Position numbers and translations under genes: made by a program. Shown here in pieces: positions 2,590 through 6,577 of a stretch of DNA of 64,000 bases; the stretch's first letter is position 1; every line of letters starts with the position of its first letter. The notes beneath the pieces are model-generated. The model was not told the DNA's origin, searched no databases, and was given only the letters and a program-made list of their open reading frames with translations. Source of the DNA: a virus (lineage: Duplodnaviria > Caudoviricetes); the IMG/VR virus record IMGVR_UViG_3300012665_000259, positions 4,404 to 68,403 of that record; one strand, given 5' to 3'.

Positions 2590-3606
2590 TTATTTCCAAT
2601 CACCGGATACTGTTGCGCCACTAGGTGTATTACCTACTACTGCCGGTTGAGCTTGTTGGCCAGATTGTGCAGGTCTTTCGGATTGCGCAGTAGTGCTACT
2701 AGATGCACCAGGTTGTAATATGCTTTCAAATTTTGACACAAATTCAGCAGATTTTTCTGCTAGCTCAAATATGCCTTCTACTCCTTTACCGATCGCTGTT
2801 CCGCCGGCACTAGTAAGCCAGTAAGCAAATAACGCACCGCCAGCGGGCGAATTGATAAGATGGTATAAGGCTGCTAACGCCGCTGGCGTAGCTGTTTTAA
2901 TTAAATTAGTAAATGTTGCTGCCCATGGTCCGGTTTTTTCTAGTTTACTAATTAACGCCGCTTTCCAACCTACTTCAATACCTTTCATCGCTAGTTTACC
3001 TGTAGTGTATACACCAAGTGTTGGTAATATTACAGCAAGTTTGCCTATCATGATAATAAATTCTTGACGTGCTAGTTTTTCAAATTCTTTGTCAGACATT
3101 TCGCCGTTTTTTGCTTGCTCTGCGGCTTCTTCTAATATAGAGTTGTATTCTATCCACGGCTGGGTAGCTCCATACAACATATAGACTCTAGTGAGCCACT
3201 TACCAGTTTGTGCCGCCCAGTTAGTATATTTGCCTACAGTATTAGAGACATTTTTAACACCTTGAATAACATCTTTTAAAAGACCTTTATTTTCTGCTTC
3301 TACATAAATCTTTCTAGCTGCCATATATCCTTCTTTTTTTACAGCTTCGTCGGCAGCTAATGCTACATCTAATTTGGCATCAGCTAAGATTTTTTCAATT
3401 TGATCGGGTTTAAATGATATTACTTTTCCAGGAGCTTTTGTGTTCTCCATCATTTCTTTAGCCCATACTCTAGCCAATTCTTCGGCAGCTTTTGTACGAG
3501 GACCTCTTCCTAAAGTCCAAGCCATTCCTTTCAACATAGTGTTGATAAATTCAGCAACAACTGGATTTCCAAGTCGTGATTCGCTAATAATGTCGTATAT
3601 TTTCAT
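2590..3606 (-). CDS. Putative internal head / ejected virion protein
   Basis: N-terminus MKIYDIISE resembles the T4 capsid-targeting sequence; late ATAAATA box at 3628-3634; hydrophobic helices mid-protein. Confidence 0.5.
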   Translation of the reverse strand: MKIYDIISESRLGNPVVAEFINTMLKGMAWTLGRGPRTKAAEELARVWAKEMMENTKAPGKVISFKPDQIEKILADAKLDVALAADEAVKKEGYMAARKIYVEAENKGLLKDVIQGVKNVSNTVGKYTNWAAQTGKWLTRVYMLYGATQPWIEYNSILEEAAEQAKNGEMSDKEFEKLARQEFIIMIGKLAVILPTLGVYTTGKLAMKGIEVGWKAALISKLEKTGPWAATFTNLIKTATPAALAALYHLINSPAGGALFAYWLTSAGGTAIGKGVEGIFELAEKSAEFVSKFESILQPGASSSTTAQSERPAQSGQQAQPAVVGNTPSGATVSGDWK

Positions 3607-3637
3607 AATATCTATTCCCAGTGTTCTTATTTATTCA

Positions 3638-4121
3638 AGATGAACTACGTTCATCTGTGTTTATCGCTTGCGCTCAAACACATATTGTTTTATTTTAATT
3701 ATTATTAAGTGCGAAGCACTTTAAATATTATCTAGATTCGTCAGTCACAATTGCCCGTTTGCACGGGCAAAAAAAGTAAAACACATTATCTGAGTTCTTA
3801 CAGTCACTAGCGTTATAGCATTACCGAGGCGGTCGTCCTGTACCTCTAGCTACGTTCTTGTCCTTTTACGGAAACGGCGGCGGTTTATATAATATACGCT
3901 AACATACTATATAAACGCGGGGGTATTTCTCCCCTCATTGAGCTCTATTAAAATTATTTTCAAACAATCAAGCCGCGGCAAATTGCGACCTACATCCTTT
4001 CGGGTAGTGATTGAGTGCTTGCTTACAGCGGCAAGTCTACGGATCCCTGCGACACGATGTCCAGGTTTCTTCTGTTCGGCACCCGATTTTAGCCGGTGCG
4101 AGCCCTAACTGTATGATTAGC
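3638..4121 (-). ncRNA. Candidate large structured non-coding RNA (unassigned family)
   Basis: About 480 nt with no ORF in an otherwise wall-to-wall coding genome. It is densely covered by hairpins whose GNRA loops (GAAA, GCAA twice) read correctly only on the minus strand. Confidence 0.5.
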
Positions 4122-4547
4122 CTAAGATTTTAATATATGTGAGCCATGTACACGAACTTGAATATGTCCGTTATAATAGTCGTCTGATTCTAATACTTTG
4201 CGGGAAAATTGTTCTCTGGCCTCGATGTAAGAGCATTGCGCCTTGGAGTTGCAGTAATATAGGATTTCTCTTGTGAAGTTTTCTGTGCCTAGTGAGTCTA
4301 TGTCTTTTTGAAGATTAGGACTACTTCCGTAGTACTCACGCCAATCGCTATCGATCTTACTGCGTATCTTCTTTTTCTTCTTTGTGCCATTCTTTAATTT
4401 CACAGTTTTATATGTGGTCTTTGAGAATTTGGCGAGTTTTTTGCCTATGTATTTCCTGCCAGAGATGACATTTGTTATCAAGTATACGAAGCCGATACAT
4501 TCCTCGGGAAGTGTTTCAACTAAATTACCTTGATAAGTCCATGACAT
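4122..4547 (-). CDS. Small GIY-YIG-superfamily (Seg-like) endonuclease
   Basis: GFVY-x10-YIG motif (GFVYLITNVISGRKYIGKK) and a downstream Glu (YIEAREQ); catalytic domain only, 141 aa. Confidence 0.75.
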   Translation of the reverse strand: MSWTYQGNLVETLPEECIGFVYLITNVISGRKYIGKKLAKFSKTTYKTVKLKNGTKKKKKIRSKIDSDWREYYGSSPNLQKDIDSLGTENFTREILYYCNSKAQCSYIEAREQFSRKVLESDDYYNGHIQVRVHGSHILKS

Positions 4548-4550
4548 GCT

Positions 4551-4802
4551 TTAGTTAGCACTATCATCCTGCGAGCCTGATTGTTTTTGAGCCTTTTTAG
4601 CTTTGGTTTTTTCGTTTAAATCGTAACGCCATTCCATAATATTGTAACGTCGTTGTTTAGCAATACGCCTAATTTCACTGAGCCAGAATCGTGCGTTTTG
4701 ACCAGCCCGTCTTGTACCTTTATTGATCCAGTCTTGGTTGGCTTTAAAATATTCTCTAAAGGCACGCATGAGTTCATCATGCGTATCTTCTTCTCTTATC
4801 AC
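4551..4802 (-). CDS. Hc1/histone-H1-like small basic DNA-binding protein
   Basis: KGTRRAGQNARFWLSEIRRIAKQRR resembles the Hc1 N-terminal helical motif; Lys-rich tail. Confidence 0.5.
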   Translation of the reverse strand: MIREEDTHDELMRAFREYFKANQDWINKGTRRAGQNARFWLSEIRRIAKQRRYNIMEWRYDLNEKTKAKKAQKQSGSQDDSAN

Positions 4803-6577
4803 TCAGTAATCTCCAAATCATTTGCGTAGCTGGTAAATCCGTTTTCTTTAATAACTTTAAGTACGTTATTCACACGCCCGATCAATTCATCTTTATGACT
4901 GATCAAATAAATGTTCTTCTTGCGTTCACGTGCCATTTTCTTTAGTACACCCAAAGCATTTTCTACACCCGATGCATCTAGTCCGTTGTCAATCAATTCG
5001 TCAATAAACAACAAGTTGATATTCTGATACAAGGATTCCCACACATCACGGAACGCCCAACTCAAGCCAAGAATCAAACGATTACGTTCACCACGAGATA
5101 AGTTGTCAAAGTCTAGATCTTGCCCTAACTGTGTAATTTCTACAGTAAGATCGTTCTGGAACATGACTGTATGCGGCAAGCCCATCTTGTCGAGATAGTA
5201 GGTCAAGCGGTTATTCAAATAGGCCAAGTTTTGATCAATAATCTTCTTACGAATAAAGCTGTCTTTACTGGTCAATAACTTTAACAAGAACTCTTGATGG
5301 TCTTTGAGTACAGTAAGTTCGTTTACACGATCCCATGTAATCTCCTGCATGGCAGTATGATGTAATTCATCAATTTGCTCTTGATAAGGATCTACTTCAC
5401 CTGCTTTGATTGTAAGGTTAGTTTCTAATGTTTTTAGATTATTCTGATGTTTAAGTGCTTGCTCAACTGTGTCATAATATGTTTCTGGTCGAGTAGTTTG
5501 CTCACCAATAGCAGTAATTTCTCGTGTAATCTTAGCAAGGTCTTTGGCCACCTTGTCTGCATACTTTTGTGCTTCATCTAAATGCTTATTAGCAGTAGCA
5601 GACATTTCTTCATGTTTGTGATCATGCAGATCCTGTTCACAAGCGTGACATTTTTTACCTGCTAAGGCGGCAAGCTCGCTAGCGTATTTTTTTACGCTTC
5701 GCTCCGCTTGCGCTGTCGCGCTTTCTAATGTTGCTCGTTCTTTGTTGAGGCTCTTTAGACGAGCAGCCTGCTCTGTATAAACTTTTAGTTGAGCGTGTGC
5801 TTCTAACTCTTGTTCAATATCTACATTTTCAAGTTCAATAATAGCACGACCGATCTTTTCTAAATCGCTGTCGTGCTGGCTATTCCATGCAGTTTGCCTA
5901 GTGACTAAACTGTCAATACTAACCTGAATTTTTTCGTTGCTTTTTCTAGCCGCTTCAATGTTTGCAGTTTCTTGATATATGTCATCTTTTGTAGATTTTA
6001 CAAGCTCTTTAAGTGCTTCTGCCTTTTCACTTAGTAGAGTAATACCTAAAAGCTGTTCAATGATAATCCGCTGTTCGTTAGCTTTCATTGACAAAAACGG
6101 CTCTGAATAAGTGTTAAGCGCAACAATGTTTTTAAACATGTCGTGACTCATACCTAATAGGTCGTCAAGGTCTTTTTGTGTTTCTCTAATGTCGCCCTGG
6201 CTATCGTCAGTTTCGTCAGCGGATAGTTCTTCGTCGTTTGCAAAGAACTTTAGGATGTTGGGTTTACGTCCTCTTTCAACACGATAGTCTAATCCGTCTT
6301 TTTCAAACGTGAGCGTGACTAACATATTTTTATTATTGATCTTGTTGATCAAATTATCTTTTTTAATGTTAGTAAGCGCAGTACCGTAAAGTGCATAGCT
6401 TAACGCATTAATGATAGTAGTTTTACCCGTACCATTACGACTACCGCTATCATCGCCGCCCTGATCTAAGTTTTCACCTAACACAAGGGTTAGTTGTTCT
6501 CTTCCAAAGTCAACAGCCTGGGTTTGATTACCCACACTCATAAAATTCTTTACAGTTAAATCTTTAATCTTTATCAT
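4799..6577 (-). CDS. gp46: Rad50/SbcC-like recombination ATPase (T4 gp46)
   Basis: Walker A GTGKTT, zinc hook CHAC, signature LSRGE, Walker B LFIDE, H-loop ISH, coiled coil. Confidence 0.93.
   Translation of the reverse strand: MIKIKDLTVKNFMSVGNQTQAVDFGREQLTLVLGENLDQGGDDSGSRNGTGKTTIINALSYALYGTALTNIKKDNLINKINNKNMLVTLTFEKDGLDYRVERGRKPNILKFFANDEELSADETDDSQGDIRETQKDLDDLLGMSHDMFKNIVALNTYSEPFLSMKANEQRIIIEQLLGITLLSEKAEALKELVKSTKDDIYQETANIEAARKSNEKIQVSIDSLVTRQTAWNSQHDSDLEKIGRAIIELENVDIEQELEAHAQLKVYTEQAARLKSLNKERATLESATAQAERSVKKYASELAALAGKKCHACEQDLHDHKHEEMSATANKHLDEAQKYADKVAKDLAKITREITAIGEQTTRPETYYDTVEQALKHQNNLKTLETNLTIKAGEVDPYQEQIDELHHTAMQEITWDRVNELTVLKDHQEFLLKLLTSKDSFIRKKIIDQNLAYLNNRLTYYLDKMGLPHTVMFQNDLTVEITQLGQDLDFDNLSRGERNRLILGLSWAFRDVWESLYQNINLLFIDELIDNGLDASGVENALGVLKKMARERKKNIYLISHKDELIGRVNNVLKVIKENGFTSYANDLEITE

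What the first reader, a model, noticed from the sequence alone, without database searches (positions are those of the whole stretch)
3638..4121. ~480-nt hairpin-dense non-coding region: candidate large structured RNA of unknown family
Seen: this is by far the largest non-coding gap, and read on the minus strand it is tiled with stems. They include CCTG-GAC/GTC-g-CAGG (4065-4046); CTTGC/GCAAG (4035-4018); a three-way junction closed by CAATCA/TGATTG (4013-3965) holding a CTAC-CC-GAAA-GG-at-GTAG arm and a GTCGC/GCGGC arm; a 14-bp stem with G-U pairs (3916-3883); TAGC..GAGG/CCTC..GCTA; a perfect 8-bp TTGCCCGT-GCAA-ACGGGCAA (3770-3751); AAGTGC-ttc-GCACTT; TGTGTTT..GC-GCAA-GC..AAACACA; and AGATGAAC-gta-GTTCATCT (3656-3638). 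GNRA loops and G-U pairs work only on the minus strand, which favours RNA over DNA structure. I could not match it to tRNA, tmRNA, SRP, RNase P or group I/II intron cores. Inference: a phage-encoded ornate ncRNA or ribozyme co-transcribed with the gp55-47-46 operon.
Basis: partly seen in the sequence, partly recalled or inferred. Interest (0 to 1): 0.85.

Follow-up and report, generated by a model that had tools for sequence, protein, structure and literature searches.

The report
Modular twin-box phage RNA, Polynucleobacter-1 head
The gene-free stretch behind a small nuclease gene of this uncultured giant T4-like freshwater phage encodes a real, knotted non-coding RNA of about 480 bases; its first third is the catalogued orphan motif Polynucleobacter-1, its middle resembles a second orphan motif (cow-rumen-2), its tail carries one 7-letter word twice, and its job is still unknown.

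Summary
The stems are real and lie on the minus strand. In 106 distinct homologues, 12 helices (66 pairs, three of them pseudoknots) are 95.8% paired, against 76.4% after column shuffling. G-U outnumbers A-C 621 to 40.

"Unknown family" is only partly right. Window 3962-4104(-) is a full-length Rfam Polynucleobacter-1 match (RF01718, 90.2 bits, cut-off 37). That model covers only the 5' third. The whole block 4121-3636 is conserved behind a 141-aa SegE-type GIY-YIG gene, downstream of gp46, in hundreds of IMG/VR contigs.

- **Core:** 3799-3916 resembles Rfam cow-rumen-2 but scores below its cut-off. A model built only from the freshwater homologues finds true cow-rumen-2 RNAs of rumen phages at the right coordinates.
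- **Heads:** relatives carry at least two other 5' heads on the same tail.

The tail holds twin boxes, ACUC-AGAUAAU and AUCU-AGAUAAU, identical in 104 of 106 RNAs across 11 variants. I found no complementary partner.

The RNA also occurs without any nuclease: in a phage contig, and in freshwater betaproteobacterial islands beside DUF6641. So it is not an obligate partner of the nuclease. Function is unknown.

This scan has already noted this RNA in at least 184 other genomes.

The parts
4122..4547 (-). 141-aa SegE-type GIY-YIG nuclease gene. It has the catalytic domain only and no DNA-binding domain. Its stop codon lies 9 nt before the first RNA pairing.
   Evidence: PF19835, 1.7e-32, residues 3-129. 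The GIY and YIG motifs are readable. 73-93% aa identity in 80 loci whose gp46 is only 49-92% identical.
3636..4121 (-). The whole conserved non-coding RNA block, about 480 nt.
   Evidence: blastn and nhmmer conservation runs from the ORF stop to about 3636 in 48 of 71 loci over the full length. The downstream gene is not conserved.
3962..4104 (-). Head domain, equal to Rfam Polynucleobacter-1 (RF01718).
   Evidence: 90.2 bits against a cut-off of 37, model positions 1-141 of 141.
4025..4112 (-). Pseudoknot PK1. ACAGU (4112-4108), which lies 5' of the Rfam model, pairs with GCUGU (4029-4025) in the loop of the third hairpin.
   Evidence: 5 bp, 4 positions with compensatory change, 100 compensated cells, 89% paired.
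3799..3916 (-). Knotted core, cow-rumen-2-like. It holds the 14-bp hairpin 3916-3883 with a UUAGCG loop, the GCCGCCGU strand, the nested helices 3852-3849/3819-3816 and 3846-3843/3829-3826, and the invariant GGUAC-GGA---ACCGCC.
   Evidence: RF02947 at 20.5 bits, full model, below its cut-off of 66. Model R1, built from this family, finds true RF02947 RNAs.
3808..3901 (-). Pseudoknot PK2. The hairpin loop UAGCGU (3901-3896) pairs with ACGCUA (3813-3808).
   Evidence: 100% paired in 48 sequences, and all 5 counted pairs change on both sides. 634 of 636 cells are paired in 106 sequences.
3832..3878 (-). Pseudoknot PK3. GCCGU (3878-3874) pairs with ACGAC (3836-3832) inside the loop of the GAGG/CCUC hairpin. 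This window has one C-A mismatch.
   Evidence: 97-99% paired, switching between GUUGU/ACAAC and GUCAU/AUGAC.
3785..3807 (-). Twin module 1: GUGAC (3807-3803), a 7-nt spacer, ACUC (3795-3792), then box AGAUAAU (3791-3785).
3751..3770 (-). Hairpin between the boxes: UUGCCCGU-GCAA-ACGGGCAA.
   Evidence: 43 distinct complementary stem versions. The inter-box segment has a mean fold z of -3.8.
3727..3748 (-). Twin module 2: GUGAC (3748-3744), a 6-nt spacer, AUCU (3737-3734), then box AGAUAAU (3733-3727).
   Evidence: Box 1 equals box 2 in 104 of 106 distinct RNAs, across 11 variants. 14 variants are seen over all loci.
3707..3721 (-). Small hairpin AAGUGC-UUC-GCACUU. It is absent in some relatives.
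   Evidence: The stem covaries: GUGC, CUGC, ACGC, CUAC and CGUC versions.
3657..3681 (-). Stem with tandem G-A flanks and a GNRA cap: GUGUUU-GA-GC-GCAA-GC-GAU-AAACAC.
   Evidence: Present in types A, B and C and in the bacterial copies. The outer stem covaries.
3638..3656 (-). Last hairpin, AGAUGAAC-GUA-GUUCAUCU. It is the likely 3' end of the RNA.
   Evidence: 8 bp, 7 positions with compensatory change, 96% paired. The simple scan does not call it a terminator on the minus strand.
3628..3635 (-). AAUAAAUA, resembling the T4 late promoter TATAAATA, 22 nt before the next ATG (3606). It probably belongs to the next gene, not to the RNA.
   Evidence: Read. [T/A]ATAAATA follows the RNA in 45 of 106 homologues. 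Exact TATAAATA follows 12 of 12 rumen cow-rumen-2 RNAs.

Best explanation
Shown:
- Window 4121-3636(-) is a gene for one large, multiply pseudoknotted non-coding RNA. It is a member, with extensions, of the Polynucleobacter-1 family.
- It is modular. The 5' head is the Rfam P-1 motif, and relatives carry at least two other heads.
- The knotted core is related to the Rfam cow-rumen-2 motif of rumen phages.
- The tail shows one 7-nt box twice, in near-identical roughly 25-nt modules on either side of a hairpin.

Inferred:
- The RNA is made as the 3' end of the gp55-47-46-GIY-YIG transcript, or from a start inside the nuclease gene, and ends at the last hairpin.
- It then works in trans as a folded scaffold.
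- Its two mostly unpaired twin modules hold two copies, or two equal halves, of one outside partner whose specificity drifts between phage lineages. The partner could be a protein dimer or a nucleic acid encoded elsewhere.
- The GIY-YIG gene is a long-resident neighbour of homing-endonuclease type, sitting next to a conserved RNA gene. It is not a subunit the RNA needs.

The biochemical job is not known.
For: **Identity:** RF01718 at 90.2 bits over the full model.

**One conserved unit:** conservation runs from the ORF stop to about 3636, while the next gene is unrelated in 79 of 80 loci.

**RNA-level structure on the minus strand:**

**Core related to cow-rumen-2:**
- Weak full-length RF02947 hits at the same relative place in the window and in L132.
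- A model built from this family alone hits four true RF02947 RNAs at their own coordinates (E 0.002-0.014). It hits none of four GC-rich controls.

**Alternative heads on the same tail:**. A head-independent twin-box regex matches 70 of 80 GIY-YIG loci. Of the other ten, eight are cut short and two differ by one letter between the boxes.

**Twin boxes:**
- Identical in 104 of 106 RNAs, across 11 variants.
- GUGAC to AUGAC or GUGGC changes, and the spacer ends, also tend to change in parallel.
- The module pattern occurs nowhere else in the 64-kb window.

**RNA without the GIY-YIG gene:**
- L122 has a PDDEXK/RusA-like nuclease in its place. L151 has no nuclease.
- Bacterial copies have none.
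- Twelve rumen relatives showed no tblastn match to this GIY-YIG. Only some upstream ORFs were scanned against Pfam.

**Nuclease under long-term selection:** about 83% aa identity at about 72% nt identity.
Against: - No transcript ends, abundance or strand have been measured. The four metatranscriptome runs are assembled contigs and show only that near-identical pieces (3703-3907, 3758-3908) sit in RNA libraries.
- The partner of the twin boxes was not found, so "scaffold for two copies of a partner" is an inference from parallel covariation alone.
- Near-universal linkage to a strongly conserved, minimal nuclease would also fit a functional pair. From the RNA side, 66 of 68 RNA-bearing IMG/VR loci carry the GIY-YIG gene.
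- The cow-rumen-2 link rests on sub-threshold scores (about 20 bits each way) and on roughly calibrated E-values.
- Sequence-only nhmmer found no rumen match.
Confidence: 0.6

Rival explanations
1. Nuclease-RNA pair. The RNA is the cofactor, guide or 3'-UTR control element of the minimal GIY-YIG nuclease, which lacks a DNA-binding domain. The twin boxes or the head would supply target recognition, or would control the nuclease's mRNA.
For: - The ORF stop lies 9 nt before PK1, so a terminating ribosome would cover the PK1 5' strand.
- The protein has the GIY-YIG domain only.
- Every GIY-YIG locus with enough downstream DNA has a twin-box RNA, two of them with one letter differing between the boxes.
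- The nuclease is better conserved than gp46.
- Weinberg 2010 already noted P-1 downstream of one gene family.
Against: - The RNA exists with a different nuclease (L122), with none (L151), and in bacterial islands with no nuclease nearby. Twelve rumen-phage relatives gave no tblastn match to this GIY-YIG.
- Other genes can sit between the nuclease and the RNA, as in L104, L116, L045, L016 and L040.
- The boxes show only 11-14 point variants, unlike guides.
- The same nuclease (about 82% identical) sits before three unrelated heads.
Confidence: 0.13
2. DNA or R-loop element. The locus would mark a replication origin or a clamp-loading site. The structured transcript would stay hybridised like a ColE1 RNA II pre-primer or a T4 origin transcript, next to a late promoter.
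For: - The RNA occurs once per genome in the records searched, including a 99%-complete genome of about 345 kb.
- It sits in the replication and recombination gene row.
- A late-promoter-like octamer directly follows the RNA here, in 45 of 106 homologues, and in 12 of 12 rumen relatives.
- Earlier notes of this scan raised the same idea. Those notes are leads only.
Against: - Covariation with many G-U pairs and three pseudoknots shows selection on a folded single strand, not on duplex DNA.
- Pairing with its own template gives no reason for the two boxes to stay identical.
- No AT-rich unwinding element or iterons were found beyond the two modules.
- Earlier notes report up to four copies in rumen phages. 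I did not check this.
Confidence: 0.1
3. Conflict element. The phage RNA would be a mimic or decoy of a homologous RNA carried by small islands of the hosts (freshwater Betaproteobacteria). It would neutralise or hijack an island-encoded system, as pseudo-ToxI RNAs do for ToxIN.
For: - Full RNAs with their own twin boxes lie in Limnohabitans sp. Bal53 and a Comamonadaceae MAG. The boxes there are AUCGAAA, with one Comamonadaceae copy reading AUCGAAA/AUCGAAU.
- Box AGCGAAA is seen in Polynucleobacter NC_009379 (Weinberg's own alignment flank) and in an unnamed Burkholderiales genome (L334).
- A near-twin pair, AGCAAAA and UGCAAAA, lies in a contig binned as Nitrospira lenta.
- In every named copy whose 5' flank was examined, the RNA lies head-to-head with a DUF6641 gene, at variable chromosomal sites.
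- Phages carry the RNA but not DUF6641.
Against: - DUF6641 and its neighbours match no PADLOC defence model.
- Only about 4 of 27 DUF6641 loci in 401 Burkholderiales genomes have the RNA.
- The hosts of these phages are unknown.
- The islands could equally be phage remnants or satellites.
Confidence: 0.08
4. Not one RNA. The gap would be a spacer holding the small P-1 sRNA plus unrelated terminators, promoters and chance hairpins.
For: - The Rfam model stops at 3962.
- Weinberg noted that the 3' half of P-1 is not always detected.
- The A-rich linker 3706-3682 is poorly conserved.
- Heads are exchangeable.
Against: - PK2 and PK3, the core and the tail covary as strongly as the Rfam part.
- The twin boxes are kept across all head types and in bacteria.
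- No minus-strand terminator separates the domains.
Confidence: 0.04

Closest known systems
Polynucleobacter-1 RNA motif (Rfam RF01718; Weinberg et al. 2010, Genome Biol 11:R31, PMC2864571)
   Same: Window 3962-4104(-) matches the whole 141-position model at 90.2 bits. The hairpins and the three-way junction are the same. The position is the same: downstream of one conserved small gene family, which the paper calls GOS11034 and links to cyanophage P-SSM2 locus 218. The freshwater setting also matches.
   Different: The published motif is only the head.
- The functional unit here is about 480 nt. It adds a 5' pseudoknot strand outside the model, a knotted core and a twin-box tail.
- The paper found no P-1 in any purified phage. 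Here it sits in giant T4-like phage contigs, 33 of the 50 records searched.
- The tail with twin boxes is visible, unannotated, in the flanks of the paper's own alignment.
cow-rumen-2 RNA motif (Rfam RF02947; listed in the Rfam 15 paper, PMC11701678)
   Same: - A hairpin whose YUAGC-type loop forms a pseudoknot.
- The GCCGCC strand that pairs with AUGAC inside the next hairpin loop.
- GUAGC, then the invariant UACAGGAYGACC-CC, then GUAA.
- Full-length alignments in both directions.
- In rumen phages the motif is likewise followed by a hairpin flanked by a repeated word, then TATAAATA.
   Different: - It scores 20.5 bits against a cut-off of 66, so it is not a member by Rfam's rule.
- The enclosing helix is built differently.
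- The rumen RNAs have another head. tblastn found no relative of this GIY-YIG in the 12 loci. Of the upstream ORFs, only three were scanned against Pfam, with no family match.
- Sequence-only search finds nothing.
GOLLD and ROOL large ornate RNAs of phages and prophages (Rfam RF01998, RF03087)
   Same: They are large, intricately folded, function-unknown RNAs carried by phages and prophages. This comparison rests on my own knowledge and on earlier notes of this scan.
   Different: No Rfam match to either at E<=1. This RNA is smaller, has a different architecture, and has twin boxes that those lack.
Free-standing GIY-YIG homing endonucleases of T4 (Seg proteins) beside conserved genes
   Same: A SegE-type catalytic domain. 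The gene is inserted between conserved genes of a T4-like phage, next to a highly conserved sequence that could serve as its homing target.
   Different: - Only 141 aa, with no DNA-binding domain.
- Nearly universal and better conserved than its core-gene neighbour, unlike sporadic selfish genes.
- Cleavage and homing were not tested.

Membership tests
Rfam RF01718 Polynucleobacter-1 | Covariance-model score at or above the curated gathering score (37 bits), over the full model. | tested here: met
   90.2 bits, E 1.3e-19, model positions 1-141 of 141, window 3962-4104(-).
Rfam RF01718 Polynucleobacter-1 | Consensus helices kept by compensatory change in relatives. | tested here: met
   Four helices are 92-100% paired, with 36-140 compensated cells each, in 106 homologues: 4099-4095/4083-4079, 4035-4033/4020-4018, 4013-4008/3970-3965 and 3990-3985/3976-3971.
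Rfam RF01718 Polynucleobacter-1 | Genomic context reported by the authors: downstream of one small conserved gene family. | tested here: met
   The RNA starts 9 nt after the SegE-type GIY-YIG ORF. Of 68 RNA-bearing loci fetched by an RNA pattern, 64 have that gene 218-294 nt upstream of the core and 2 have it about 1 kb upstream.
Rfam RF02947 cow-rumen-2 | Covariance-model score at or above the curated gathering score (66 bits). | tested here: not met
   20.5 bits (E 0.57 in 1.3 kb) at 3799-3916(-). L132 scores 22.9 and L118 scores 20.3.
Rfam RF02947 cow-rumen-2 | Homology of the core, tested by a reciprocal model search against confirmed members. | tested here: inconclusive
   Model R1, built from 48 freshwater sequences only, hits L395, L364, L363 and L406 at the coordinates of their RF02947 matches. 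Those matches score 103-110 bits in the three loci that cmscan covered; L406 itself was not scanned. The R1 hits have E 0.002-0.014 over the full model. 0 of 4 GC-rich controls were hit. The E-values are only roughly calibrated, and nhmmer found nothing.
Known ribozymes, group I and II introns, tmRNA, RNase P, SRP, 6S, GOLLD, ROOL (all Rfam 15 families) | Any covariance-model match at E<=1 with permissive filters. | tested here: not met
   Only RF01718 and the weak RF02947 match were returned for 3400-4700 on both strands.
Intrinsic (rho-independent) terminator at the RNA 3' end | A G+C-rich hairpin followed by a U tract on the transcribed strand. | tested here: not met
   The scan lists no minus-strand site at 3656-3638. 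The tail after the stem is UGAAUAAAUA. The 3770-3751 hairpin has its U run on the 5' side.
Pfam PF19835 SegE_GIY-YIG (the neighbouring gene) | Profile score above the curated cut-off, and GIY / YIG motifs present. | tested here: met
   112.7 bits against a cut-off of 25. The sequence GFVY...KYIG is readable. Nuclease activity was not tested.
Guide-RNA systems (omega-RNA/TnpB, bridge RNA/IS110 type) | A hypervariable guide segment complementary to a nearby target or to element ends, and an obligate cognate protein gene. | tested here: not met
   The boxes have only 11-14 point variants. No complement was found in 3-7 kb flanks or in the 64-kb window. The RNA occurs without the nuclease.

The most novel reading that the evidence does not exclude
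Polynucleobacter-1 and cow-rumen-2 are not two small orphan motifs. They are the head and the core of one modular superfamily of large twin-box RNAs, shared by giant T4-like phages of lakes and rumens and by small islands of their likely hosts. On this reading the RNA works by gripping two copies of a co-evolving partner with its twin modules, in a phage-host conflict (decoy or hijack of an island system) or in some other mode of action not yet described for RNA.
Probability: 0.12. Interest if true: 0.85.

Novelty: new variant of a known kind. Interest (0 to 1): 0.6.

Why it matters
Two Rfam families have stood for years as unexplained short motifs. This locus shows both as parts of one large, knotted RNA of about 480 nt that is among the most conserved features of a widespread group of uncultured giant phages. 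It is better conserved than the neighbouring Rad50-like core gene.

The twin boxes changed in step at least ten times. That is a clear, testable signature of an outside partner and has no ready parallel among known RNA classes.

Homologues sit in cultivable Limnohabitans and Polynucleobacter strains. So the RNA can be studied at the bench without first isolating the phage.

The finding is tempered in two ways. The head is already catalogued, and this scan has met the same RNA in many other genomes.

Tried and rejected
- **Deposited phages:** blastn of the locus against 50,697 phage records gave no match.
- **First box patterns:** my first two patterns were mistyped and said nothing. The corrected scan shows the module is unique in the window, so it is not a genome-wide promoter.
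- **Sigma-70 reading of GAUAAU:** rejected. The spacing to any -35 is wrong, and variants lose the key T.
- **Complement of the box:**
  - None is enriched in 3-7 kb flanks.
  - None is specific to a box variant inside the RNA. The U-rich 3966-3961 can wobble-pair with any variant, so it explains nothing.
  - No composite target exists in the 64-kb window apart from the antisense strand itself.
- **Stop-codon or mini-ORF reading:** in phages, box positions 4-6 are UAA or UGA. Rejected because bacterial boxes read AGCGAAA, AUCGAAA and AGCAAAA, and the frame to GUG is not kept in this window.
- **Anticodon-loop mimic:** rejected by eye. Box 2 lacks U33.
- **DUF6641 as the universal reader:** rejected. 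It is absent from six phage records, and most DUF6641 loci lack the RNA.
- **Island proteins:** no PADLOC hit. ORF137 and ORF134 are not homologous. No paper mentions DUF6641.
- **RNA-library contigs:**
  - They give no ends, strand or level.
  - No cover over 3200-3626, and two contigs starting at 3907/3908, are not used as evidence.
- **Genome-collection pattern scan:** almost all chance hits. 4 of the 80 loci fetched are real.
- **RNAalifold on plain MAFFT alignments:** it missed most helices because of indels. Pair statistics were therefore computed directly.
- **PDB sequence search with the nuclease:** nothing significant.
- **nhmmer of the RNA profile against rumen loci:** no hit.

Full report
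**What is in the window**

On the minus strand the gene row runs as follows:
- a late sigma factor of the gp55 type (8414-7584)
- a gp47-like phosphoesterase (7587-6574)
- a gp46/Rad50-like ATPase (6577-4799)
- an 83-aa ORF
- a 141-aa SegE-type GIY-YIG nuclease (4547-4122)

After that, no ORF of 40 aa or more lies on this strand until the ATG at 3606. The record is a 68-kb IMG/VR fragment that CheckV rates 19% complete. Complete relatives are about 345-355 kb.

I collected 80 loci through the nuclease protein and 80 through an RNA pattern. From these I extracted 106 distinct full-length homologues that are 59-79% identical to the window.

- Twelve helices (66 pairs) are 95.8% paired, against 76.4% after column shuffling and 31-40% with partners slid.
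- G-U outnumbers A-C 621 to 40, which fixes the RNA to the minus strand.
- The tool's own count on an independent 48-sequence alignment of the core gives 96.3% against 75.8%. There, 27 of 32 pairs change on both sides and 0 of 500 shuffles reach that level.
- The hairpins of the tail recur in 43 complementary versions.
- Only the CUAC/GUAG extension is private to this window.

**What it is**

Rfam gives one hit above threshold in the whole window. It is Polynucleobacter-1 at 3962-4104(-), 90.2 bits against a cut-off of 37, over the full model.

The authors of that motif noted three things. It lies downstream of one gene family with a possible cyanophage relative. Its 3' half is not always found. 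No sequenced phage had it.

Here the conserved block is far longer than their model. Conservation starts about 10 nt before the nuclease ATG and runs without a break to about 3636. The gene after it is unrelated in 79 of 80 loci. RF01718 was found once each in 33 of the 50 nuclease-bearing records searched.

**The core resembles a second orphan motif**

The only other Rfam signal is a weak full-length match of 3799-3916 to cow-rumen-2: 20.5 bits against a cut-off of 66. It recurs at the same relative place in L132. L118 gives a further weak match, placed further downstream.

- The matched letters are the invariant ones of my alignment: the UAGC loop, GCCGCC, GUAGC, UACAGGAYGACC-CC and GUAA.
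- I fetched true cow-rumen-2 RNAs from AT-rich rumen phage contigs. They score 90-110 bits.
- I then searched them with a model built only from the freshwater family.
- It hit four of them over the full model, at their Rfam or pattern-match coordinates, with E 0.002-0.014 in 240 kb.
- It also hit type-B relatives, and none of four GC-rich decoys.
- The rumen RNAs continue with a hairpin flanked by a repeated word, and then TATAAATA in 12 of 12.

I read this as distant homology of core and tail. It is not Rfam membership.

**Modularity**

Relatives with an equally conserved nuclease carry other sequences in place of the P-1 head.
- Type B: for example L012, from a complete 347-kb genome.
- Type C: for example L056, with box ACAUGAA.

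RF01718 does not match these heads, yet both types keep the twin-box tail and the terminal hairpins.

**Twin boxes**

Each module reads GUGAC, then 6-7 nt, then A, then CUC or UCU, then a 7-nt box.

- The two boxes are identical in 104 of 106 RNAs, across 11 variants. 14 variants are seen over all loci.
- That means at least ten coordinated double changes.
- Changes in GUGAC and in the spacer ends also tend to run in parallel.
- The module is unique in the window.
- I found no partner. Nothing is enriched in the flanks, nothing variant-specific lies inside the RNA, and the window holds no composite target.

**Relation to the nuclease**

From the nuclease side, 70 of 80 loci have a twin-box RNA. 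Of the other ten, eight are cut short and two differ by one letter between the boxes.

From the RNA side, 66 of 68 loci have the GIY-YIG gene. L122 has a PDDEXK/RusA-like nuclease at the same spot, and L151 has no nuclease.

The nuclease is about 83% identical in protein at about 72% in DNA, while gp46 falls to 49%. That points to long purifying selection rather than a recent sweep.

**Bacterial copies**

RF01718 is found in these genomes:
- the isolate Limnohabitans sp. Bal53, twice, one copy cut after the head
- a Comamonadaceae MAG, twice, 8.9 kb apart and 80% alike
- a beta-proteobacterial MAG
- a contig binned as Nitrospira lenta

The flank of the Polynucleobacter hit in the original alignment shows the tail with twin AGCGAAA boxes.

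In every copy whose 5' flank was examined, a DUF6641 gene (phrog_31551, function unknown) lies head-to-head with the RNA. The beta-proteobacterial MAG and the Polynucleobacter flank were not examined. No nuclease is nearby. Short integrase genes sit next to two of the copies.

DUF6641 is absent from six phage records, and most DUF6641 genes lack the RNA. It is therefore not the general reader.

**Expression**

Freshwater metatranscriptome assemblies from four studies hold near-identical pieces of the RNA, for example 3703-3907 with one difference. This shows presence in RNA libraries only.

**Verdict**

This is a real RNA gene. Its head is already catalogued, and its full architecture is not described in the papers I could search.

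The working model is a trans-acting scaffold whose twin modules hold two copies of one partner, with the nuclease as a neighbour rather than a subunit. That model is inferred, not shown.

The scan has noted this RNA before in at least 184 genomes. The link to cow-rumen-2 and the DUF6641 neighbour did not appear in those notes.

Noticed in passing
L151:3911-4304 and L151:5169-5240: A phage contig that carries the twin-box RNA without any nuclease also encodes a permuted, alpha-type tmRNA (RF04321 at 92.5 bits, RF01849 at 65.1 bits) and a tRNA.
   Followed up: no
window 4122-4547 compared with 4799-6577, and loci L003-L082: The small GIY-YIG nuclease is better conserved (73-93% aa) than the Rad50-like core gene beside it (49-92%). 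That is unusual for a homing-type gene. PHROGs labels its family phrog_447 "NAD synthetase", which looks like a mis-annotation.
   Followed up: partly
window 3628-3635 (-): AAUAAAUA lies 22 nt before the ATG of the 338-aa ORF and resembles the T4 late promoter TATAAATA. The exact octamer follows all 12 rumen cow-rumen-2 RNAs at +162 to +231, 11 of them within +162 to +174. In L363 the gene after it is a T4_baseplate gene.
   Followed up: partly
L329 (Comamonadaceae MAG), L330 and L331 (Limnohabitans sp. Bal53), L332 (contig binned as Nitrospira lenta): Small islands hold the RNA head-to-head with a DUF6641 gene at unrelated chromosomal sites. Short tyrosine recombinase genes of 192-195 aa follow the RNA in two cases. 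In L330 the RNA is cut off right after the P-1 head.
   Followed up: partly
L051, L054 and L081, about 3430-3790: In some type-C loci an extra small ORF with a CxxC...CxxC-like motif sits between the nuclease gene and the RNA.
   Followed up: no
window 3878-3874 with 3807-3803 and 3748-3744: The PK3 5' strand (GUYRU in relatives) could also wobble-pair with either invariant GUGAC of the twin modules. That is a possible alternative conformation, and only G-U-tolerant complementarity supports it.
   Followed up: no
G059, G080, G106, G148 (Burkholderiales genomes of 1.7-2.1 Mb): DUF6641 genes occur in 2-4 copies per genome in small freshwater-type genomes. Most have other, partly conserved upstream regions that were not examined for RNA structure.
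   Followed up: no
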